DNA of 64,000 bases, taken from positions 85,622,001 to 85,686,000 of the forward strand of contig OX597822.1 in assembly GCA_951406725.2 (NCBI GenBank), in the 5' to 3' direction. The stretch comes from Octopus vulgaris. Taxonomy: Eukaryota. This document shows, one piece after another, positions 11,957 to 63,835 of the stretch. The position numbers were made by a program, and so were the translations under genes. Position 1 is the first letter of the stretch, and every line of letters begins with the position of its first letter. The notes beneath the pieces were generated by a model. The model saw only the letters and a program-made list of their open reading frames with translations, made no database searches and was not told the DNA's origin.

Positions 11957-12003
11957 GGCGGCTGACGAGGTGAATAGTCAGTGAAACATCTACATGCCCC
12001 ACC
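11957..12003 (+). ncRNA. Decayed hammerhead-like motif, copy 1 of a direct repeat
   Basis: GGCGG-CUGACGA-GGUGA(AUAG)UCAGU-GAAA-CAU(CUAC)AUG-CC-CCACC. U16.1 is replaced by C. Confidence 0.45.
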
Positions 12004-15653: not shown

Positions 15654-16002
15654 CATACATATATACATATATATATATGTATGTATGTATCTAAATGCAA
15701 TTAAGATTCAGTTGAATTAGGTACTTCAATTGAGGCACCTTGTTAGGTGGGAATAACATGCATATTCAACGATATTAAGTGAATATCAAACTTGGTGCAT
15801 AAGTACTGGCTATATGATATTCTTGCAGATAATAAGACCTACATGAGTGGAGAAATCCGCTCTTGAGCTATTCAGACAAGCCGCTGGTATTTATAGAGTG
15901 TTAAACACTTTCTATATGCAAATTAGGGACTCCTTCACAGAGCAACTGCTGCATTTGTTGAGTATATAAACAGTTTGGCTGCTCATTTCTCTGGATACTG
16001 TC

Positions 16003-16071
16003 AGAATGATGTGGACGCCTCTGATGAGGACCCAACAAGGTTCGAAAATCGATTAAGGTTGTTCGTCATTC
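16003..16071 (+). ncRNA. Canonical type-I hammerhead ribozyme
   Basis: Core CUGAUGA at 16021-16027. Stem II is GGACC/GGUUC with loop CAACAA. GAAA at 16044-16047. Stem III is AA(UCGA)UU, within the palindrome AAUCGAUU. The cleavage triplet UUA ends at 16055. Stem I is GGACGCCU/AGGU(U)GUUC, extended by AGAAUGAU/GUCAUUCU. Confidence 0.8.
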
Positions 16072-16503
16072 TTTTCAGCCTGTTGAGAAATGGCTAAAAG
16101 TTGCCCTGTTTATAATTATACCATACTGTCTGTAATATTTACGAAGCACAGATTACAGGACAGGTGAACGAGTAACAAAGAAGTATAGGTGTTAATCCAT
16201 TACAGCCGTTTCCAACGACACCTTTAATTGCAAAAAAAAACGTCTTCGTCAGATGAATTCATGAACTTCTCTACACAGAAGACAATTTGATTGATTTAAC
16301 ATAGTTACGAATTCACGGAGCAAAAATATTTACGTTGATTCTGCTACTATTCAGTTGACAGAATGAATTTATCAAAATAGTGTATACTGTCAGAACAAAG
16401 GAAATTTAGGGGCTATTAGAATTTATAGTAGGGGGAAGAAGTAATTGACTCAAGTGGCCCAGTTATCTATACGTCTAACAATAGAGGAAGGATTGGCTCC
16501 AAT

Positions 16504-17990
16504 CGGCTAGAACCTCGCAGTACGAGTACACCATTGTACGAGTAATTTGCTGTACGAGTCGTGACTCGTGTGAATTTTTGTCTTGAAATACGAACGGAAA
16601 TCCGCAGTACGAGCGAGTTTCATACAAGCGACCGCTAGTCGGCGCTGAGCTCGCACGCGCTTTCCCAACAAGTGCTGTCTCCGCTCGCTCAGTTCACGTG
16701 TTTATCTCGTTGTGGTAGCATCCCTGTTATGTTTTTCCCAGAGCATCCCTGTTGTGTTTTTCCCTGTGTTTTATTCAGATTTGTACGTTTTTCGCTATTA
16801 TTGTATAGTAATTAGTTGTTAGCCATGGGTCCTAAGAATGTTGGTGCAAAGGATAGTGTTGAGAAGAAGAAAAAGCTGATTAGGGTAAAATTGAAGAAAG
16901 AAATCATTGATAAACATGAGAGAGGTGTGCGTGTAGTGGACATAGCAGGTCAATACGACCGAAGCACGTCGATGATGTGCACCGTCCTGAAGAAAAAGGA
17001 AGAGATCAAGGCTGTTACAACAGCAAAGGGTGTCTCCAGGTTGTCTAAACAACGCACATCTGTCCACAAAAGGATGGAAAAACCGCTTCTGGGGATCAAT
17101 GAGAAGTAATTCGCAGGGGATACGATTACGAAGACCATCATCTGCGAGAAAGCACGAGCGCTGAATGAAGATCTCTTGAAGCAGAACCCTGGAACATCGA
17201 TGGAGCAGACATCAGCAGACGCATTTCAGGCCAGTTGCGGCTGGTTTGATAATTTCAAGAAGAGGACTGGTGTTCATAGTGCCGTCAGGTATGGAGAAGC
17301 AGCGACTTCTGACACGAAGGCAGCTGAAGATTTTGTGCGTGAATTCCGTCAGCTTATCGCAGCCGAGAGGCACATCGCACAACAGGTATTCAACTGTGAT
17401 GAACCTGGCTTTTTTTGAAAAACAAAATGCCCAGATAAACCTACATAACTGCAGAGGAAAAGAAAATTCCAGGCCACAAGCTTATGAAAGACAGGCTAAC
17501 TCTCACCCTTAGTGCCAATGCGAGTGGAAACTTGAAAATTAAGCTGCTTCTTGTCTACCATTCCGAAAACCCACGAGCGTTCAAGTCGCACAAAATCCTG
17601 AAGGAGAAGCTGCAGGTCATATGGAGGGTCAGCAGGTAATTCTTCTCCGAGTAGGTCAACTTTGTCTTCTGACCAGCAATGAAAAATTATCTCATGAAGA
17701 ACAATTTCCTCTCAAGGCTTTCCTCATCTTCAACTATGCTCCCTGCTTAACCTCGAAGATGATAGCCAGGACGAATTTAAATTTATAAAACTTCTGAGCC
17801 TTTCACGCAGCACTACTCCTATCTTGCAGCCCATGGATCAACTGATGATTTCTAATTTTAAGAAATTGTACACCAAACACCTGTTTCGTCGGTGCTTTGA
17901 AGTCACCGAAAATACAAATCTAACCCTTCATGAGTTTTGAAAGGAGTATTACAACATTGTAAACTGCCTGAAAATCCTCAATATGGCATT
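16504..17990 (+). mobile_element. Tigger/pogo DNA transposon, decayed transposase
   Basis: HTH-psq (KKEIIDKHERGVRVVDIAGQYDRSTSMMCTVLKKKEEIK), CENP-B HTH (FQASCGWFDNFKKRTG), QQVFNCDEPGFF, KDRLTL and ILQPMDQ, with many stops and frameshifts. TIR-like tagaacctcg...tacgag at the left end. Confidence 0.9.
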
Positions 17991-18503
17991 TACAAAGTGT
18001 ACAATAATACTATGAATTGAGAAATAGGGTGATGGTCATGGAACAGATACAAACAAGAGGGTGAGAAGGAAAGTATTGTAGATTACATAGACTCCAGTAT
18101 GTGAGTTAAACATATTCTATCCACCCCGCTCTTCTCGGAAGGATTAAATGTAAAGTCGACACCGGCAGGATTTGAACTCAGAACATAAAGAAACGTAACA
18201 AAACATTACAAGATACTCAATCCAGTGTTCCGAAAACATGACTGATATTACAAAATCATTTCAAGTGTATTGATGACCAAACTTCAATAATATACACAAG
18301 AGATGGCGGACAGATGGGAGACAGATGGCGGTCAGGTTAAGTAATCGAATATGGTAGCAATAATAAAAGAGAGCGATATAGCCCCCTATCTTTACAAATG
18401 CCCCCTATACTTACAAATGTCCCTTCTTCCTCACTAAGCGTTATTCCACGTCTCCGAAGTAAGAACGATACGACAGAAACCTATAGACTTTTGTCGGTCC
18501 TGA

Positions 18504-37508: not shown

Positions 37509-38509
37509 ATAGTGTAATAAATAAAATATATGCATACATACAAACATATATGTACGTACCTACATCTACATGTATATATACATGCATATATAAATATATA
37601 TACGTAAGTACAGGACACCTCAAAAAGACGTAGAACTCGACAGAAACGAAAACGGAAAAGCCATTTTTTTACAACAGAAAGACAGAGACGTGGAACAGGA
37701 CGAGAACGAAAACGGGAAAAACATTATTTACAACAGAAAAACAAGGTATAGGACAAGCTACACAAGGAAAATCTCCAATCATCAGTTGTCGCTAGTAGAC
37801 TTAGCGTGTTTCGAAGGCAAGACAGGACACGACTCGTCAATACTAGGCCTTCCTGCGAGAGAATTAAAATAAAATAACCTCGCAGAGGGGTAAAACAAGC
37901 ACGAAAAAAATGTAACACAAACAGGATGTAACAATAAAACTGCACAATAAAATACAAGATAAAAATACATGTACAAGAAAATACAAAACGAGAAATAAAA
38001 TACAATACGAGAAATCAAAATAAACAAGAAAACAAACGAGAAAAACAAACGAAAGGCCTTTGTTCTGGCTGGGACGGAAGAGGTTCTGGCAAGCGCATGG
38101 AAACACGACTTTCGTGCTTGTTTTACCCCTCTGCGAGGTTATTTTATTTTAGTTCTCTCGCATGAAGGCCTAGTATTGACGAGTCGTGTCCTGTCTTGCC
38201 TTCGAAACACGCTAAGTCTACTAGCGACAGCTGATGATTGGGGATTTTCCTTGTGTAGCTTGTCCTGTACCTTGTTTTTCTGCTGTAAATAATGTTTTTC
38301 CCGTTTTCGTTCTCGTCCTGTTCCACGTCTCTGTCTTTCTGTTGTAAAAAAATGGCTTTTCCGTTTTCGTTTCTGTCGAGTTCTACGTCTTTTTGTGGTG
38401 TCCTGTACTTATGTATATATATTTATATATGCATGTATATATACATGTAGATGTAGGTACGTACATATATGTTTGTATGTATGCATATATTTTATTTATT
38501 ACACACTAT
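37509..38509. mobile_element. ~400-bp near-perfect inverted repeat (arms 37509-37906 and 38110-38509), probable PLE inverted pseudo-LTR structure
   Basis: The arms are reverse complementary with roughly 8-10 differences by eye, separated by a 203-bp spacer. The ORF track shows twin 60-aa ORFs on opposite strands. Confidence 0.92.
38170..38224 (+). ncRNA. Type-I hammerhead-like motif (U3 variant); identical mirror copy at 37792-37846 (-)
   Basis: CUAGUA-UUGACGA-G(UCGUGUCCUGUCUUGCCUU)C-GAAA-C(ACGCUAA)G-UC-UACUAG. Perfect 6-bp stem I and a GUC cleavage triplet. Confidence 0.6.
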
Positions 38510-55149: not shown

Positions 55150-55573
55150 CACACACATACAGTAAAATCTGCAGATGAAAAATTCTTTAGTTCAGTGAAT
55201 CAATCCCTGGACTTAATTTTTTTTTAAACCTTGCTCTTATTCTATTTTACTGAACTGTTAAGTTACAGGGATGTAAACACACCAATACCAGTTGTCAAAC
55301 AACGGTGGGGTACACACACACACACATGCACATATATGTGAGGCTATAGTAGAAGACACTTGACTAAGGTACCACACAGTGGGACTGAACCCAGAATCAT
55401 GTGGTTGGGAAACAAACTTCTTACCACAGACACAATATATTTTTCAATCCAAGTCCTCCATTAGTAGAAAAAGTACAATTAGTAGAATTATTTGCACTAA
55501 TCATATTCCACCAGTATCTCTGTTCTGTAAGTTCTCAACTCCATTTCCAGGTATCATTCCGTTCCCCTTAAAG

Positions 55574-55729
55574 ATGACCGAGTGTGCTAGTTATGTATTT
55601 GTTGCACAACCCCCAGTTACTGAAACGGGCAAAATTATTTTTGGAAAAAACTCTAATCGTCCTGAACATGAAGTACAAGAAGTCATCTATGTTCCAGCCA
55701 AAGAACATAAGACAGGAGAGAAACTGAGG
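55574..55729 (+). CDS. SCRN: Secernin (peptidase C69 / Ntn-hydrolase fold), coding exon 1
   Basis: MTECASYVFVAQPPVTETGKIIFGKNSNRPEHEVQEVIYVPAKEHKTGEKLR matches the secernin N-terminus (FVAxPP...IFGKNSxRPxxEVQEV). Acceptor ttccag| at 55550, donor agg|gtaagt, phase 0. Confidence 0.93.
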
Positions 55730-55827
55730 GTAAGTCAAAGAAAAATGGTTTCTGTCTCTGGGTTTTACTCTGTGTGTGTGTGTGTGTGTGTGTGCGTGCA
55801 TATAGGTTTGTGTGTTTGTATGTATAT

Positions 55828-56775
55828 ATTGGTGAGAGCTGTATGAGTCATGTACAAGGATGCTGTCAGCAGGGTGAAAGTTGGCAACAAGTATAGTAGT
55901 GAATTCAGGGTAGGAGTTCACCAAGGATCGGTTCTCAGCCCCATCTTGTTCATCATAGTTCTCCAGGCTATAGCAGAGGAATTTAAGATGGGCTGCCCTT
56001 GGGAACTCCTCTGTGCTGATGACCTTGTTCTTATAGATGAATCACTACCAGAACTAGAGAAGAAATTTCAGGTGTGGAAGCAAGGTCTGGAATGAAAGGG
56101 ATTTAGGGTTAATTTAGCAAAGACCAAAGTCTTAGTAAATAAGAAAACAGACAAATCCCAAATCCCATCAGATAGATGGCCTTGCTTGACATGTAAAAAA
56201 GGTGTAGGTAGGAAACTCGATAAGGTGTACCTGGTACAAACTTTAGACACCTAAGCGGTACAGCAATATCAGAGGAAGGTTAACAAAGTAGTCTTTGTGT
56301 GTGGCAGGTAAATAGGTACAATAAACACTAAAAATGAAAATAGATTTTGTCAAATACCCAGAGGGATACTAAGAAGTAGTAAATAGCTTCAGTTACTTAA
56401 GTGGTCAAGTCAGCAGTGGAGGGGGATGCTCTGAGAGTGTAGCTATGAGAATAAGAATAGGCTGGGCAAAGTTCAGAGAGCTTTTGGTCCTACCTTTGTT
56501 GGTAACAAAGGATGTCTCCCTCAGAGTGAAAGCCAGATTGTATGATGAGTGTGGACAGCCATACTACATGGCAGTGAAATATGGACTGTGACTGCAGAGG
56601 ACATGCAAAGGCTTGAAAGAAATGAAGGTAGCATGCACTGCTGGATGTGCAATGTCAGTGTGCATGTCTGACAGCGTCTTTAGAGAAAAATTGTGAATAA
56701 GAAGCATCAGATGTGGTGTGCAAGAGAGATGACTGTGCTAGTATGGTCATGGGATGCATATGGCCGAGGACACTG
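55828..56775 (+). mobile_element. RTE LINE reverse transcriptase fragment (in secernin intron)
   Basis: MYKDAVSRVKVG, GVHQGSVLSPILFIIVL, PWELLCADDLVL, GFRVNLAKTKVL, RIRIGWAKFREL and LHGSEIW, with many lesions. Confidence 0.9.
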
Positions 56776-57699
56776 TAGGCATCAGGAACATTTGTTGGGG
56801 TTTTTTTTTCAGAGTTTGTCATGTTTAACTAAGTGAGTCATTCTAGTCTGTTGGGGTCCATATTTACAATTATGAGGCACAGAAAGTGCATTGATCATAG
56901 ACAAAACACAGTACTTGACACAGAAATCAAATTGCTGACTTAGGTGGTCTTACTGATTCAATGTGTCTAAGCCTCTCTGTATTATAATAATCTGCTATTT
57001 CAATATATTATCTCCCTACTTGACTGGATCACTTCAACTCGTGTGGAGTGTTCACTGGGTCATATCACAGAATAAATAGGGAGTCTTTTAAAATAGTTTG
57101 CTTCTTTTCCTTGAGACTGTTGAAGGGAAGAAAATAATACAATCCAAATTTTTTATTTGTCAAATGAATACTTTCAAAATGTAAAGGTAAAAAGTTATCT
57201 AAAAAAACCATTGATGAGGTCTAGCTGTCAGTATATCCATCCATCCATCCATTTTCTCTGCCAACTATTCCTGGGAGAGTTGTGGAGTTTTCGGGCACCT
57301 CCTCCATAGGATTCTATCAGAAGCAACGGTCACTACATTTCCTGGCTGGACTCCCAAATGTGACCAACTAACACAAATGGATGCTGTCCAGCCATCTCAT
57401 TTTTGGTCCAACCTTAGGACCCCTGCCAGTTGGCTCAGCATGAAGAATCTCTCTTACAGTCCTCTCCTGTGGCACTCTAACCACCATTAAAGCATCCACA
57501 CTACAAAGGCTTTCCTCCTTTCATTCGATATACAAACAAGTGTGGAATCTTAACTGGACTGTTGATGTTGAAGAGAATCTTCCTCTGTTGTTTCTTATGT
57601 ATGAAACCTGCTCCTAACCTGCAAAATATCAACTAATGAGAGGTTTCCTATGTCACCAATTCTCAAACTTATTTTTTGCAATTGAAATAAATATCAATG

Positions 57700-58077
57700 G
57701 AAATAGTAGTTGTGATACCTGTGCCGGTGGCACATAAAAAGCACCATCCGAATGTGGCTGATGCCAGTGCCGCCTCGACTGGCTTCTGTGCCAGTGGCAC
57801 GTAAAAAGCACCATCCGAACGTGGCCAATGCCAGTGGCACATTAAAAGCACCAACCGATCGTGGCCGCTGCCAGACTTCCCTGGCACCTGTGCCGGTGGC
57901 ACGTGAAAGCACCAACTACACTCGCAGAGTGGTTAGCGTTAGGAAGGGCATCCAGCTGTAGAAACACTGCCAGATCAGACTGGAGCCTGGCACAGCCTCC
58001 TGGCTTCCCAGACCCCGGTCGAACCGTCCAACCCGTGCTAGCGCAGAAAACGGATGTTAAACGATGATGATGATGAT
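57700..58077 (+). mobile_element. SINE-like family D with an RTE-type 3' tail and internal tandem units
   Basis: Repeated tgccagtggcacgtaaaaagcacc units, then ggttggcgttaggaagggcatccagctgtagaaac...gttaaacgatgatgatg. Copies at 47984-48180(-), 50045-50288(+), 60495-60782(+) and 61287-61598(+). Confidence 0.8.
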
Positions 58078-59371
58078 TGCTTCCTTTTTTTTTTTTACTA
58101 AGACTTTTCAACCTCTCGTAAGATTCATATCCCTTTCGTCCATTGATGGATGAGAAATCAAATAATTGAATTTTGTTTATCAGACTGGTATGAAGTATTT
58201 TTATTTCATCTTGAAAACACTCAAGGATATTCTTTATTAGAGAGAAGTCAATAGAAACAACCCAAGTGTATCACTGGTACTTGTTTTATGAATCCTGAAA
58301 GAGAGGAAAAATGTTTTGCATTATTTATATTCTGAGTTGAAATCTTTACCAAAGTAGATTTTGTCTTCCATTTTCTCAAGACTTGATAAAAAAACTCCTA
58401 TCAAATACTGGGGTTTGTTTATTCAACCGTAGCCCTTCAGGGTCTGTGTTAGAAAGCATAAATCTAAAGGATTGAATTATATCGACTGTAACATTGTTTG
58501 GATTCCAAATTTAGAACAACAGACCAAGACATTGTCAGACTTTCAGTGAGGCCAGGCATCTAACAGCTCTCTCTCTCTCAGATACAGAAAGTATTATGTA
58601 CAACTATGGTATATGTGTGTGTGTATTGTATGTCTTTGTGTGTGTGTATTGTGTGTATCTTTGTGTGTCTGTGAAGGTGCAGCCACAGCTAAGCGGTGAA
58701 GAAGCTTGCTTGAACCCTTTCTACTAATCCGATTCCTCTCTCTCACATCCAAAGCTTATTTATTGATATTCTTTTCTAGTCTTCATACATTTTCATAGCT
58801 TCAAGATTTCAATGACGTGATCGCTTAGTTTTAGAATGACATTGTAGGATAGGTGGGAGAGGTCTGATCTGGCCAGTTTGAACATAAAACAGAATCTTTG
58901 GGCCAGATACAGCTAGTTTAAATGATAAAGGGTCCTAAGACCTTGGGTTTGATCCTGCTTGTGCCTCAGAAAAACATCTTTCATAGCCTCAGGTCAATCA
59001 TAAAGTTTGTGAGTAAAATTGGGTCTAAATGGAAACTGTGTGGAAGCCTGTTGGATGGAGTGTATCTGTATGTGAAGAAGCCAGCCTTCTCAAATACAGA
59101 CACAGTGGGTCATGCTGAGACTGACCGAGGGCTACATGAAGAGTACCAGTATTAGTTGAATATTCTGGCACACAAGAATTCAGTAAGGCAGTCGTTTAAA
59201 GTAAGATTAAAAACTGGAATCTCTGTTTTTGAAACCGATGGCGTAACCATTTACTTTGTGTGTGTGTTACCATTTATTTGTGAGTGACAGAGAATTGTTT
59301 TTATGTATCTGTTAAATCCCCATCACACATCCCACAGAATCTTGTAATTTTGCTCTCAACTTTACTTTTAG

Positions 59372-59559
59372 TGCAGTCTTATAGAGATTGATCAGTCCTC
59401 CCACACAAATGGTGTGGTACTAAGCAAAGCAGCATGGATGTGGGGGGCTGAGATGGGAGCTAATGAATATGGAGTATGTATTGGCAGTTCCATGGTCTAC
59501 AGCAGACTGGAAGAGAAACTGGGGGAAGAGGAAAAGTTGCTGGCAGCTGATTTACTCAG
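59372..59559 (+). CDS. SCRN: Secernin coding exon 2
   Basis: ttttag|[63 protein letters not shown]|gtcagt. Contains the hallmark [16 protein letters not shown]. Phase 0 to 2. Confidence 0.96.
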
Positions 59560-59595
59560 GTCAGTTTTATCATTGTTGTATTCCTCTGTGTTATC

Positions 59596-59800
59596 ATCAG
59601 TGTCAGCAATTCTTGCTGTCTATGTCAGCAGTTGTTGCTGTCAGTGTCAGTAATTATTGCTGTTTGTGTCAGCAGTTGTTGCTGTTAGTGTCAGCAATTA
59701 TTGCTGTCAGTGTCAGCAGTTGTTGCTGTCAGTGTCAGCAATTATTGCTGTCAGTGTCAGCAGTTGTTGCTGTCAGTGTCAGCAATTATTGCTGTTAGTG
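59596..59800. repeat. 22-bp minisatellite, ~9 units, just inside the intron after coding exon 2
   Basis: Alternating units tcagtgtcagcagttgttgctg / tcagtgtcagcaattattgctg. Confidence 0.9.
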
Positions 59801-60139
59801 TCATGCCAACATTGACAGTATCCACTATCAACAGTTGTTGCTATCAATCTTAACATTGTTACCATTGCTTCTACCTCATTATCATTTTTATCCTCATCAT
59901 TATTCAATATTTTCTATCCTCTCTAATCCCATTATCATCATCTTCATTACCATCATGATCATATCCATCACATAATTAATAATCTTGGGAAAAGCACGAC
60001 GATCACCACCTCAGTTTTATCCTGTTTAAGAAAATATAAAAAATCTTTCTCCAAACAATCACCTTCAACCTCATTTTCATCTTTTTCTTCTTCTTTATCT
60101 TCTTTTTTGATGTTTAATGATTGATTTTGTCTCTCTTAG

Positions 60140-60354
60140 GTTGACATTAGAACGCAGCAAATGTTCTCGTGAAGCTGTCGATGTCCTTACATCTCTGCTG
60201 ACCACACATGGTCAAAGTGGCCCCTACAGTGAAATACCTACCTTCACACATTCCTGTAAACACTGCTATAGTTTCCTCATAACAGATGGTTCTGAAGTCT
60301 GGGTGGTTGAAACGGTCGGAAATGGTTCTTTCTGGGCAGCTGCAAAAGTCACAG
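60140..60354 (+). CDS. SCRN: Secernin coding exon 3
   Basis: ctcttag|(R)LTLERSKCSREAVDVLTSLLTTHGQSGPYSE...HCYSFLITDGSEVWVVETVGNGSFWAAAKVT|gtaaga. Matches LxLER..A.EA..V...LL...GQ.G and SFLI.D..E.WV.ET.G..WAA. Phase 2 to 1. Confidence 0.95.
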
Positions 60355-61043
60355 GTAAGATGATGTTCCAATCACCCAAACGCTGTTAATATATTCCAAA
60401 ACAGCATTATTAGAAATTTCATATTAAGCTTTAAATAAAAAGAAAATAGCTATTAGTGTTGTGATCATAGCAACTCCAGCCAAAGTTAGTGGTAACCCTG
60501 GCTGTGATGGTGCTATGTAAAATGCATCCAGTCCACTCTGTAAAGTGATTGGCATTTGGAAGGGTATCCAGCTGTAAAAACCATGCCAAAACTGACCTCA
60601 CCTGTGCTGGTGCCACATAAAAAGCATTCAGTCCACTCTGCTGGGTGGTTGCTGTTAGGAAGGGCATGCCAAAACAGACACTGAAGACCATGCCAAAACA
60701 GACACTGAAGCCTGGTGCAGTCTTCTATCTGGCCAGCTTCTGTCTAACTGATGTTAGCACAGAAAGCACATATCAAATGATATATATATGCCTGTGTGGA
60801 TTGTTTTCAAGTATTTTGATTTTTCTGGGAGTCCCTTTTTAAAGTAAAAGAAATAGCTAATGGTTTTTGGCTGCTATTTCTAAACTTTGGTATGTGGTAA
60901 AGCAAATCTTTGCTGAACCCTATTTATTAAGTATTACTTAAGTTTACCATGAAATGGTCCTTTTTTCATGCCGAATTCTACTTGGTGAAATTATTGATTA
61001 CTTCTTAATTAATTAATTTTACCCTTTGTTATTATATATATAT

Positions 61044-61983
61044 AATAAATTGAAAGGTATAATGAGAAATGCTGAAATTGGTAAAAACAACTTTATATCA
61101 TTCCCATATTATCATAAATCAAACATAAATATATATTAAAACAGGGCACCCAATGATAAAACCCAACAGTATAAAATATACAAATAAAGGTGTTAAAACC
61201 TAAAAGAGTAATACAAGTGAAGTTGAATGAAGAAAAATAAACGGATTAAATTAATGCATTTTAAAAGCAACTAAAAATTGAAGGCAATGGCACGTAAAAA
61301 TAACCATTGGAGCATGGTCATTGCCAAAGCCGACTGACTGGCCCTCATGCTGGTAGCACGTAAAAATAAACATTAGAGCATTGTCGTTGCCAGTGCTGCC
61401 TGACTGGCCCCCGTGCCAGTGGCACGTAAAAAGCGCCCACTACACTCTTGGAGTGGTTGGCATTAGGAAGGGCATCCAGCTGTAGAAACCTTGCCAGATC
61501 AGATTGGAGTCTGGTGCAACCTTCTGGCTCACCAGTCCTCAGTCAAATCGTCTAACCCATGCCAGCATGGAAAGCAGGCATTACACGATGATGATGATGA
61601 AAGGACAAAGCAATGACCAGAAAAAGAGTCCATTCCAAATTCATCTCCATCCAGAATACTGCCAAAATAATATATTTCAGCAATATTCTGAATAGAAATG
61701 GATTTCCTTTATTTATATATTTTAGTTTTAAATTTTTAGTTGCTTTTATTATGCATTAATTTATTCCATATATTTTCCTTCATTCAACTTCATTCTTATT
61801 AACCTTTTAAGTTTATCACCTTTTATTTATATATATATGTGTATATTTTATACTATTGGGTTTTACCATTGGATGCCCTGATGTTTTTAATATATACTTA
61901 TGTTCGATTTATGATAATATGGGAATGTTATAAAGTTATTTTGACCAATTACAGCGTTTATTCATTATACCTTTCAATTTATT
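61044..61983. repeat. Diverged ~240-bp inverted repeat (arms ~61044-61280 and ~61730-61983) in the intron after coding exon 3
   Basis: aataaattgaaaggtataatga...aaaagcaactaaaaatt pairs with aatttttagttgctttt...tcattatacctttcaatttatt. A family D SINE lies in the spacer. Confidence 0.85.
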
Positions 61984-62067
61984 TTTTCTTCCCTCTCAAT
62001 GTTACCTGAGCACTTCCATCTGCAGTCCTATTTTTATTTTTCGGTTTAGCAAAATTGTAAAATTATC

Positions 62068-62112
<45 letters not shown>

Positions 62113-62729
62113 CCACACACTCATATATATATATATATATATATATATACAGGAAATTAATTATTTGGCCAGTCATAGAGTGACTAATTGTTTTGCATCC
62201 ATAAAAAGCCTTATAGACAATTCCTTTTGTTGAATAACCAAGGTTGTAAAGTTCCATATTATCCAAGAGATGGTGGCTTTTGTGATCATGTAGATGCACA
62301 TAGTGGCAGTGCAGCTATCGGACACAAACCATGTGGTGGCCTTTGTAAGACACTCTGTGTCCAGGTCACATGGTGGATTGTCAGTGGATCATGTATCCGA
62401 CAAAGATATATGGTCCACTGACAATATATATATATATATACACACACACACCCTCTTATTTATAACTGAAATATTTACATAGTTTGGTAGATGGTAACTG
62501 TACTGAAGCTCATCTGATGTGTGTGTGTCAGTGTTTGAGTCTGTTTACACCAAATTATTTGTCTATTGAATAAAGTTAATCCATAGATATTAAATAATAT
62601 CAACAGAAAAAAAAAATAAAGACAATCAGCAAAATATCAATTTAATTTTATATCAAATTCTGTTGATAATATAATGAGTTTTTCTAGAAATGTCCAACAT
62701 TTAATTTTTTTCTCTTTTTACCATTTCAG

Positions 62730-62930
62730 CTGGATTGTATAGTATACACGGCCACCTCACCATCTCTGATAACTTCTCTCTCTCATCAGAGAATCTAATT
62801 GCTAAAGTCAGTGAAGCAGGACTTTATCAAGAATCTGATGGACCATTTAATTTTGCAAAAGTATTTACACCTGATAATGCACCTGCAATTGATGCAGAAA
62901 TTTCTAAAGCAGAGGAGCTGATCGTTGTAG
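62730..62930 (+). CDS. SCRN: Secernin coding exon 4 (gene continues beyond the window)
   Basis: tttcag|(A)GLYSIHGHLTISDNFSLSSENLIAKVSEAGLYQESDGPFNFAKVFTPDNAPAIDAEISKAEELIV|gtaaga. Matches the secernin G...I.N.L.I...L...A...G.....F.F..VF region. Phase 1 to 1. Confidence 0.85.
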
Positions 62931-63019
62931 GTAAGAAACTAATATTTATTTATTTATTAAATGGATGGTATTCTTCACAATTTCTACCTATTTCATATTT
63001 CCTACAAGATTCTATAAGT

Positions 63020-63835
63020 ATTAGGGGTACCGGAAAGTAATGTCATATTTTCAAGTAAACAGTCTGACATCATAACACAAATAGTTTACAAGCCAATCAA
63101 AGGTGTCCTAGTAATCAACCAATCAGCATAGAGTTTATAACCAAATGTCAATGTAGACACATGCTGTGTGTGTGTGTGTATGTTTTATATGAAACAAGCC
63201 ATGGAAGACAAAAACTGGTTCGTTGCATATTTGGTATTGCATGCTTTAAGGATTTCCTAAGGATAACAATGCAACGCATGCCAGGAAAAACATATGTTCC
63301 ATATATAACCTGACGGTGTGAGTTTTCAGAAATGCCAAAGGTGGTTTAATATATTTAAAAGAGAAAAAAAAACAGCGATTTTGATTTTTTGGATGAATAT
63401 CAATCAAGGAGATCAACTGTTCTCAATAATGACACATGAAAAGCAGCAATTGAAGAGGATCCAGGTCAAAGCATCGGGGAATTATTCCAGGGGTTTAATA
63501 GGTCTTGGTCCACTGTGCAAGATCATCTCAAGCAGATTTGAAAAAGTTTTTAGAGAACAGAAGTGGGTACCTCAGGGGCTGTCCCCTGAGAATGTAGCAG
63601 TGTGTTCAACAAGATAACCCAAGCTCTACCTCACCCCTCTCCAAACTTAGCACCATTAGGTTTTTACTTATTTCTGTCATTTAAATACTTTACCAGTAAA
63701 AAAAAAAAAAAGATATTCAGAAGCCAGGATGATATCGAAATGGCACTTCATATATTTGTCTCCCCTAAAGAATTTCTTCACTGTGAGAAATTCAATCACT
63801 GATAACTTGTCTGTGATGTGTGAAAATGTTATCAC
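63020..63835 (+). mobile_element. Decayed mariner element
   Basis: TIR-like taggggtaccggaaagtaatgtc, start MEDK, CQRWF, QKWVP and LPHPSPNLAPLGFYLFLSF. Confidence 0.75.

What the first reader, a model, noticed from the sequence alone, without database searches (positions are those of the whole stretch)
16003..16071. Fully canonical, apparently intact type-I hammerhead ribozyme downstream of a TATA-like box
Seen: all conserved core nucleotides (CUGAUGA, G-C closing stem II, GAAA, UH = UUA), a 5-bp stem II, a long bulged stem I with an 8-bp distal extension, and a 2-bp stem III within the palindrome AAUCGAUU. TATATAAA lies about 40 nt upstream (15963). Known: minimal type-I hammerheads with a palindromic stem III are typical of Penelope pseudo-LTRs and metazoan retrozymes and can cleave as dimers. 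Inference: this is a solo pLTR/retrozyme copy that may still self-cleave after 16055.
Basis: partly seen in the sequence, partly recalled or inferred. Interest (0 to 1): 0.75.

Follow-up and report, generated by a model that had tools for sequence, protein, structure and literature searches.

The report
Solo copy of hammerhead retrozyme family
This is a genuine hammerhead (self-cutting RNA) motif inside one truncated copy of a 305-base repeat that is scattered in hundreds to thousands of copies through this genome; it is likely a retrozyme pasted in by Penelope-type enzymes, a known kind of genomic parasite, and cutting by this copy is untested.

Summary
The motif is real. Core, 5-bp stem II, 6+8-bp stem I and palindromic 2-bp stem III lie at 16004-16071 (2 of 200 shuffles give any such motif). 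It sits in a 251-bp copy (15875-16125) of a non-coding 305-bp repeat: 334 genomic copies keep the exact core pattern, control 0. Copies form head-to-tail arrays up to about 2.4 units, share a fixed 3' end at TA/CA microsatellites and have scattered 5' ends, none at the cleavage site (0 of 30). The TATA box belongs to the unit and is as conserved between two subfamilies as the catalytic core. No ORF-bearing partner was found among 50 GIY-YIG loci. Best reading: an old non-LTR retrozyme family, likely mobilised by Neptune-type Penelope elements. This copy is a solo 0.82 unit nested in another repeat, 6.5% from its subfamily majority, so it could not make a circle. Rfam gives no hit, and cleavage and expression are untested. 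This scan already noted 360- and 485-490-nt retrozymes in the same genome; this is a further family. Known kind, modest interest.

The parts
15875..16125 (+). Copy of the 305-bp repeat (family A), unit positions 55-305 (0.82 unit), one ribozyme; lacks the usual TGTTAC+(TA/CA)n end
   Evidence: 88.8% to natural unit L072; 6.5% from subfamily majority, others 3.9-7.4%
16004..16071 (+). Type I hammerhead ribozyme motif: distal stem I, internal loop, 6-bp proximal stem I with a bulge at 16059, core, stem II, stem III
16021..16055 (+). Catalytic core with stems II and III; predicted cleavage between 16055 and 16056 (NUH = UUA)
   Evidence: Sequence; 334 genomic copies match the core pattern, reversed control 0
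16047..16054 (+). Palindrome AATCGATT: 2-bp stem III in a monomer, 8-bp duplex between two ribozymes
   Evidence: Self-duplex -6.1 kcal/mol; monomer pairing probability 0.0
15963..15970 (+). TATATAAA, internal to the unit; candidate promoter
   Evidence: Subfamily 2 mismatch rate 0.043 against 0.56 and 0.31 in the spacers on either side, core 0.034
15916..15923 (+). Octamer ATGCAAAT, identical in both subfamily majorities; candidate upstream promoter element (motif name recalled)
   Evidence: subfamily 2 mismatch 0.15
15693..15878 (-). Host repeat (family B), part left of the insertion; ends at the TA/CA microsatellite near 15690; GACA (15875-15878) is shared by host and guest
   Evidence: (1170 candidates, 40 scored)
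16123..16511 (-). Host repeat (family B), part right of the insertion; ATA (16123-16125) is shared; 17 bp of host are missing at the insertion, no target duplication
16201..16252 (-). Decayed hammerhead-like motif of host family B (CUGACGA plus one extra base, long helix II partly deleted here, palindrome ACGGCCGT in the family, one change here)

Best explanation
The hammerhead is part of a solo, 5'-truncated copy of a 305-bp protein-less repeat that is likely a non-LTR retrozyme, inserted into an older repeat and decaying since. Shown: unit length, head-to-tail arrays, a fixed 3' end about 76 nt past the cleavage site that runs into TA/CA microsatellites, scattered 5' ends, copies running through the cleavage site, and selective conservation of core and TATA box between subfamilies. 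Inferred cycle: in an array of about 1.6-1.7 units or more, the internal octamer/TATA promoter starts transcription near the 5' edge of the first ribozyme. Two ribozymes cut, helped by pairing through the AAUCGAUU palindrome, and release a 305-nt monomer that is ligated into a circle. A Penelope-type RT/GIY-YIG enzyme nicks a TA repeat, primes on the AU-rich UGUUACAUAU segment, and copies round the circle for a variable distance. The window copy has the promoter and one ribozyme. If transcribed it would give a roughly 60-nt 5' piece and a run-on 3' piece, never a circle, so it is a transposition dead end. My odds that this copy cleaves in vitro: about 35% as a monomer, about 60% as a dimer.
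For: High copy number with sharp ends (3041 candidates, 40 scored, the other 39 at 87-91%; 334 exact cores, control 0). Arrays: L060 holds 2.4 units with three ribozymes; in 30 loci picked only by the sequence 3' of the cut, 5 carry two core positions. Fixed 3' end in 28 of 30 and 60 of 71 (counted from its rows; 29 of these were picked as near full length). 5' ends: 0 of 30 start at the cleavage site and 28 of 30 run through the core, as expected of a circular or uncut template. Subfamily majorities differ at 4 of 60 ribozyme positions against 32 of 154 elsewhere (p=0.014). Neptune-type elements with intact 781-aa RT+GIY-YIG frames are present and end the same way, with a palindromic hammerhead variant 33-212 nt (mostly 57-133) before a TA/CA run. 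Size, low GC (0.40), type I ribozyme and tandem form match the definition in PMC7229834.
Against: No cleavage, circle or transcript was shown. The active monomer fold is about 9 kcal/mol above the MFE in the nearest-neighbour model (-12.2 vs -21.4). Circular folds of four natural units are not unusually stable (z from -2.6 to +0.8 on the plus strand, similar on the minus strand). Within subfamily 1 the core is not significantly better kept than the rest (0.024 vs 0.047, p=0.08) and CpG sites have decayed 23%. RNAalifold gives no consensus structure. No sequence link to any Penelope element was found, so the mobiliser is inferred from shared targets and end layout only. Long arrays, typical of coral and axolotl retrozymes, were not seen. 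Only 1 of 9 Xenopus retrozyme dimers cleaved in vitro (10.64898/2026.07.22.740005, part 3). Subfamily 2 loci were picked by similarity to a query that includes the ribozyme and the TATA box, which favours their conservation.
Confidence: 0.8

Rival explanations
1. It is the 3' end (pseudo-LTR) of an autonomous Penelope-like element, left by 5'-truncated insertion; partial tandems are ordinary pLTR duplications.
For: Same end layout as the genome's Neptune-type elements. Retrozymes are reported to derive from pLTRs (10.64898/2026.07.22.740005, part 3). Only 50 of 150 scored, and of 6136 candidate, GIY-YIG loci were examined. An old parent could have decayed.
Against: Upstream of a full unit lies either another piece of the unit or unrelated flank. 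The only shared upstream, in 6 loci, is a 1.65-kb non-coding element that captured a fragment. No unit homology in 50 GIY-YIG loci and 0 of 35 alignments to 3' UTRs beat shuffles. The Penelope-type ORF fragments near copies (L013=L196, L020, L075) lie downstream or inverted. The ribozyme is canonical, whereas the elements here carry variants (UUGAUAA or UUGAAGA cores).
Confidence: 0.12
2. The repeat spread as DNA (satellite-like unequal crossover or capture by DNA transposons) and the ribozyme is a vestige.
For: One fragment was amplified inside another element (6 loci). Copies decay neutrally.
Against: Copies are dispersed over most chromosomes, with a fixed 3' end and scattered 5' ends. Core and TATA box are selectively kept between subfamilies.
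Confidence: 0.04
3. This particular copy has been kept intact by selection as a host regulatory ribozyme or promoter.
For: All core bases and stems are intact, and its ribozyme substitutions in paired positions keep pairing (16029 and 16065 as G-U wobbles, 16071 as G-C).
Against: It is as diverged as its siblings (6.5% vs 3.9-7.4%), and 6 of 29 siblings are equally intact. It lies among nested transposon relics. No host exon with a Pfam match was found nearer than 60.1 kb in the window (103 of 126 candidate frames scanned).
Confidence: 0.03
4. Chance match to a short motif.
For: Rfam gives no hit. The loose core pattern is frequent.
Against: 2 of 200 shuffles for the full descriptor; 334 genomic copies, control 0.
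Confidence: 0.01

Closest known systems
Metazoan non-LTR retrozymes (Cervera and de la Pena 2020, PMC7229834; read: parts 2-3 of 6, Discussion, passages)
   Same: Non-coding unit of about 300 bp, GC below 45%, one canonical type I hammerhead with a 2-bp palindromic helix III per unit, head-to-tail copies, coexistence with Penelope-like elements.
   Different: Mostly dispersed partial units (longest seen 2.4 units, against up to 62-mers in coral). Fixed 3' end at TA/CA microsatellites. Conserved internal TATA/octamer. Circles and cleavage not shown. No strongly self-paired fold.
Penelope-like element pLTR hammerheads (Cervera and de la Pena 2014, PMC4209133, parts 1-2 of 4; Craig et al. 10.1101/2021.04.23.441226, passages)
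   Same: Type I ribozyme near the 3' end, palindromic helix III, 5' truncation, partial tandems, TA microsatellite targets (reported there for Naiads).
   Different: No ORF-joined copy found. The ribozyme lacks the extra base after A9 and has a long stem I. Inverted arms are rare (2 of 100 loci have hits on both strands, neither adjacent).
Newt satellite 2 and Schistosoma Sm-alpha repeats (PMC6155905, PMC2632901, PMC2220036: passages only)
   Same: Repeat with hammerhead and internal promoter. Loop 2 is C....A like Schistosoma CAAAUA, and the U1 of internal loop 1 is present.
   Different: Helix II is 5 bp, stem I has a bulge, and a G stands where Schistosoma has the extrahelical C8. The promoter here is TATA-type by sequence. 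The newt promoter is described as snRNA-type (seen only as a citing sentence; the original paper is not held).
Vertebrate non-LTR retrozymes as non-autonomous PLE derivatives (Li, Clavereau, Pollet 2026, 10.64898/2026.07.22.740005, parts 1-3 of 5)
   Same: Monomers dispersed, few multimers, Neptune elements in the same genome.
   Different: There, 24 of 57 Xenopus families matched known transposons, nearly all of them PLEs. Here no homology to a pLTR was detected.

Membership tests
Type I hammerhead ribozyme | Conserved core CUGANGA, GAAA, NUH around three helices, helix I open | tested here: met
Type I hammerhead ribozyme | Loop 1-loop 2 tertiary motif (loop 1 U, 3' A of loop 2, extrahelical pyrimidine) | tested here: inconclusive
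   U16063 and A16038 are present; G16014 stands at the pyrimidine position, against the description in PMC2632901
Type I hammerhead ribozyme | Compensatory changes in stems across homologues | tested here: inconclusive
   Score 0.196 vs 0.187+/-0.007, 55 of 500 shuffles; 0.211 vs 0.189, 0 of 500 with the bulge moved to 16059 after inspection; related rows inflate this; RNAalifold found no structure
Type I hammerhead ribozyme | Self-cleavage | not testable with these tools
   Needs in vitro transcription
Rfam hammerhead families | Match to a covariance model | tested here: not met
   No hammerhead family at E<=10; a model miss, which does not remove the motif
Non-LTR retrozyme | Non-coding unit of 150-450 bp, GC under 50%, one type I hammerhead per unit | tested here: met
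   305 bp, GC 0.40; the only Pfam match over it is below cut-off
Non-LTR retrozyme | Head-to-tail tandem copies with two or more ribozymes | tested here: met
   Met by the family (L060, L020, L051, L149; 5 of 30); not by this solo copy
Non-LTR retrozyme | Abundant linear and circular monomer RNA | tested here: inconclusive
   Only contigs of runs guessed to be RNA; the tandem joint also stands in a DNA-like run
Non-LTR retrozyme | Coexisting autonomous Penelope-like elements | tested here: met
   RT+GIY-YIG frames of 781 aa with the Zn-finger linker
Penelope-like element pLTR | Flanks an RT-GIY-YIG ORF in at least some copies | tested here: not met
   None in 50 GIY-YIG loci or in the repeat loci examined; the search was not exhaustive
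Penelope-like element pLTR | Minimal or variant ribozyme with an extra base after A9 | tested here: not met
   G10.1 follows A9 directly

The most novel reading that the evidence does not exclude
The family is a self-contained promoter-plus-ribozyme cassette. Its conserved octamer/TATA starts transcription at the ribozyme's edge, so only insertions of about 1.7 turns regenerate a circle-making master. A living subfamily makes one of the most abundant small circular RNAs in a related species (run X1, summed contig depth up to about 590,000), while thousands of solo copies such as this one remain as dispersed promoters and cleavage sites that circles can activate in trans through the palindrome.
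Probability: 0.12. Interest if true: 0.62.

Novelty: new member of a known kind. Interest (0 to 1): 0.3.

Why it matters
It adds an older, mostly single-armed retrozyme family to a genome where this scan had noted younger two-armed ones. It supplies genomic footprints (fixed priming point, read-through of the cleavage site, microsatellite targets shared with intact Neptune elements) for the proposed but little-tested route in which Penelope enzymes copy small ribozyme circles. The conserved internal TATA box points to how such repeats are transcribed and is directly testable. The single locus is an ordinary relic.

Tried and rejected
Rfam scans: no hammerhead hit. A 1.65-kb element sharing the ribozyme in 6 loci was checked as the autonomous partner. 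It has no Pfam domain in the 5 frames tested and shares only unit 195-304, so it was read as a carrier that captured a fragment and left out of the counts, together with 4 duplicate loci. A by-eye likeness between the unit's 3' part and the Neptune 3' ribozyme failed: 0 of 35 pairs at p<0.05. Pile-up of 5' ends at the cleavage site: 2 of 30 near it, 0 of 30, so not supported. Expression: no RNA holder listed. Run X1 (RNA by guess, another organism) has very deep contigs over the unit, up to 433,000 against about 200 or less over most of the host repeat. But DNA-like run X3 is also deep (10,000-87,000), the host repeat is about 20% diverged and lays poorly at 80% likeness, and contigs cannot measure level, so this is a lead only. 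A compensatory change in X1 stem II was looked for and not seen. Circular folding was not distinctive. Another core-like match at 11962-11992 fails the descriptor and is not part of the repeat found there. Literature: one search listed two papers holding hammerhead, retrozyme and octopus, neither about this by title or abstract. One search (hammerhead ribozyme + cephalopod) gave 4 papers, 2 listed, neither describing it by title or abstract. One search was uninformative. I found no description of this family. Supplements of PMC7229834, PMC4209133 and the 2026 preprint were not read, and repeat libraries were not available; either may list it.

Full report
Observation. The window carries the motif as described: CTGATGA at 16021-16027, a 5-bp stem II closed by G-C with loop CAACAA, GAAA, the palindrome AATCGATT (16047-16054) and A17 at 16055. 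Stem I is best drawn as 6 bp with a bulged pyrimidine at 16059, an internal loop and 8 further pairs. With that register pair 16017-16060 holds in 61 of 66 aligned copies, against 39 of 66 for 16017-16059. A structural descriptor finds only this hit in 64 kb; 2 of 200 shuffles give any hit and none a palindromic one. Rfam does not recognise it at E<=10. Folding supports stems I and II but not stem III in a monomer, the active fold being about 9 kcal/mol above the minimum, while the palindrome pairs with itself at -6.1 kcal/mol.

The repeat. A search of the 2.8-Gb genome with 15700-16200 returned 3041 candidates; the 40 scored match almost exactly 15875-16125, the 39 others at 87-91%. Their flanks show a 305-bp unit, of which the window holds positions 55-305. 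An exact 35-nt core pattern occurs 48 times and a pattern with free stem II 334 times, with reversed controls 0. In an independently chosen set 4 of 28 copies fit that second pattern (read), which suggests roughly 2,000-3,000 copies; this is an estimate. Units stand head to tail: L060 has 2.4 units and three ribozymes, and 5 of 30 loci picked only by the sequence 3' of the cut carry two core positions. The 3' end is fixed at ...ACCATA-TGTTAC followed by TA/CA repeats (28 of 30; 60 of 71 after removing 4 duplicates and 6 carrier-borne fragments), about 76 nt past the cleavage site. 5' ends are scattered: 0 of 30 start at the cleavage site and 28 of 30 run through the core; 2 of 30 started near it in another set. 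A cut linear monomer primed at that 3' point would give copies of at most about 77 nt, so the template was a circle or an uncut multimer (inference). Inverted arms are rare: 2 of 100 loci have hits on both strands, neither adjacent, 0 of 30 in each, and one pair of opposite matches 470 bp apart in the list.

Selection and age. Two subfamilies (29 loci each) differ in their majority bases at 4 of 60 ribozyme positions and 32 of 154 others (p=0.014). Against the subfamily 1 majority, subfamily 2 mismatches are 0.034 in CTGATGA, 0.043 in TATATAAA and 0.15 in the octamer, against 0.56 and 0.31 in the spacers beside the TATA box. The subfamily 2 query contained these motifs, which favours them. Within subfamily 1, copies decay about neutrally (core 0.024, rest 0.047, p=0.08; CpG 0.23). 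19 of 29 keep the core and 6 of 29 keep core and all tested stems. The window copy is 6.5% from the majority, like its siblings. Covariation is weak: 55 of 500 shuffles reach the score in the first register and 0 of 500 in the register chosen afterwards; RNAalifold predicts nothing. So the active lineage kept the ribozyme and TATA box, and this copy is intact by luck rather than by shown selection.

Setting. Both flanks belong to one older minus-strand repeat. Uninterrupted copies read ...TTCAGACA TGTACTTTATATTAAAA ATA CTGTC. Here 17 bp are replaced by the guest, with GACA shared on the left and ATA on the right and no duplication. Either the insertion deleted the target, or it primed at the host's TGTAC and a later ATA-bounded deletion removed the tail (inference). 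The host has its own variant hammerhead (16252-16201, decayed), and 20 of 42 host loci have hits on both strands. It is cut at 16511 by a pogo/Tigger-type relic. No nearby host exon was identified (103 of 126 candidate frames), so whether the copy lies in an intron is open.

Mobiliser. [quoted passage not shown] Their 3' ends carry palindromic hammerhead variants 33-212 nt (mostly 57-133) before TA/CA runs, the same layout as this unit. No sequence link was found: blastn of 50 such loci, tblastn around repeat copies and 35 shuffle-controlled alignments were negative, apart from ORF fragments lying downstream of or inverted to three copies. Mobilisation by these elements is therefore inferred.

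Expression. No run on record as RNA holds the stretch. Contigs of four runs guessed to be RNA carry family members, run X1 at summed depth up to 433,000 on the window copy and 587,000 on unit L072, spacer included. A DNA-like run is also deep and also shows the tandem joint. This shows the family in related organisms, not expression or circles.

Mechanism and comparison. The anatomy matches animal non-LTR retrozymes as defined in PMC7229834: oligomeric transcript, self-cleavage, ligation to a circle, copying by an autonomous element. A 2-bp helix III cleaved efficiently as a monomer in coral and weakly in axolotl, where dimers did better. Only 1 of 9 Xenopus dimers cleaved. The loops partly match the Schistosoma tertiary motif. 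By standard TATA spacing (general knowledge) transcription would begin near 15990-16000, just before stem I. A circle then needs the promoter in one unit and a whole second unit, about 1.6-1.7 units, which L243, L154 and L060 reach. The window copy, at 0.82 unit, cannot do so. Earlier notes of this scan describe 360-nt and 485-490-nt retrozymes with two-armed insertions in the same genome (unchecked AI notes). A look-up by sequence found nothing like this unit. The two-armed footprint fits the host repeat here but not this family.

Verdict. Observation confirmed. New member of a known kind (non-LTR retrozyme, about 0.8; pLTR of an unfound element, about 0.12). Interest 0.3.

Noticed in passing
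window 15693-16511 (minus strand): Host repeat B: at least 670 bp in uninterrupted copies, with its own variant hammerhead (extra base after A9, helix II about 55 nt, palindrome ACGGCCGT). Hits begin at two preferred points (near 15693 and near 16165) and 20 of 42 loci have both orientations, a two-armed Penelope-type footprint.
   Followed up: partly
L081:6049-7689 and L082-L086: A 1.65-kb non-coding element in at least 6 loci (88-93% alike) carries a captured fragment of the retrozyme that starts 6 nt before the core, keeping an intact ribozyme core with a different 5' strand of stem I.
   Followed up: partly
L118, L123 and relatives (G000): Young Neptune-type Penelope family with many intact 781-aa frames. 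Its 3' UTR has repeated CCAAT/CRE-like boxes and a TATA-like box (motif names recalled), and a hammerhead variant with core UUGAUAA and palindrome ACATGT.
   Followed up: partly
L020:259-1449: A 5'-truncated Penelope ORF of the L115 family begins about 50 nt after the 3' end of a 1.6-unit retrozyme array on the same strand, probably inserted into its TA tail.
   Followed up: no
window about 16512-18000: Decayed pogo/Tigger-type transposon (HTH_Tnp_Tc5 and DDE_1 fragments) cutting host repeat B.
   Followed up: no
window 55364-63037 (+): Exon-like frames of a peptidase C69 gene; Pfam match at 60111-60386, and the frames at 55364 and 62705 were assigned by eye only.
   Followed up: no
window 37512-38504: 395-bp inverted repeat, 98% complementary, 203 nt apart.
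   Followed up: no
window 11962-11992 (+): Core-like CTGACGA...GAAA match that fails the descriptor and has no repeat copies among the top hits; likely chance.
   Followed up: yes
run X1 laid on window 15916-16077 and L072: Contigs of a diverged subfamily at summed depth of several hundred thousand in a run guessed to be RNA from another organism.
   Followed up: partly
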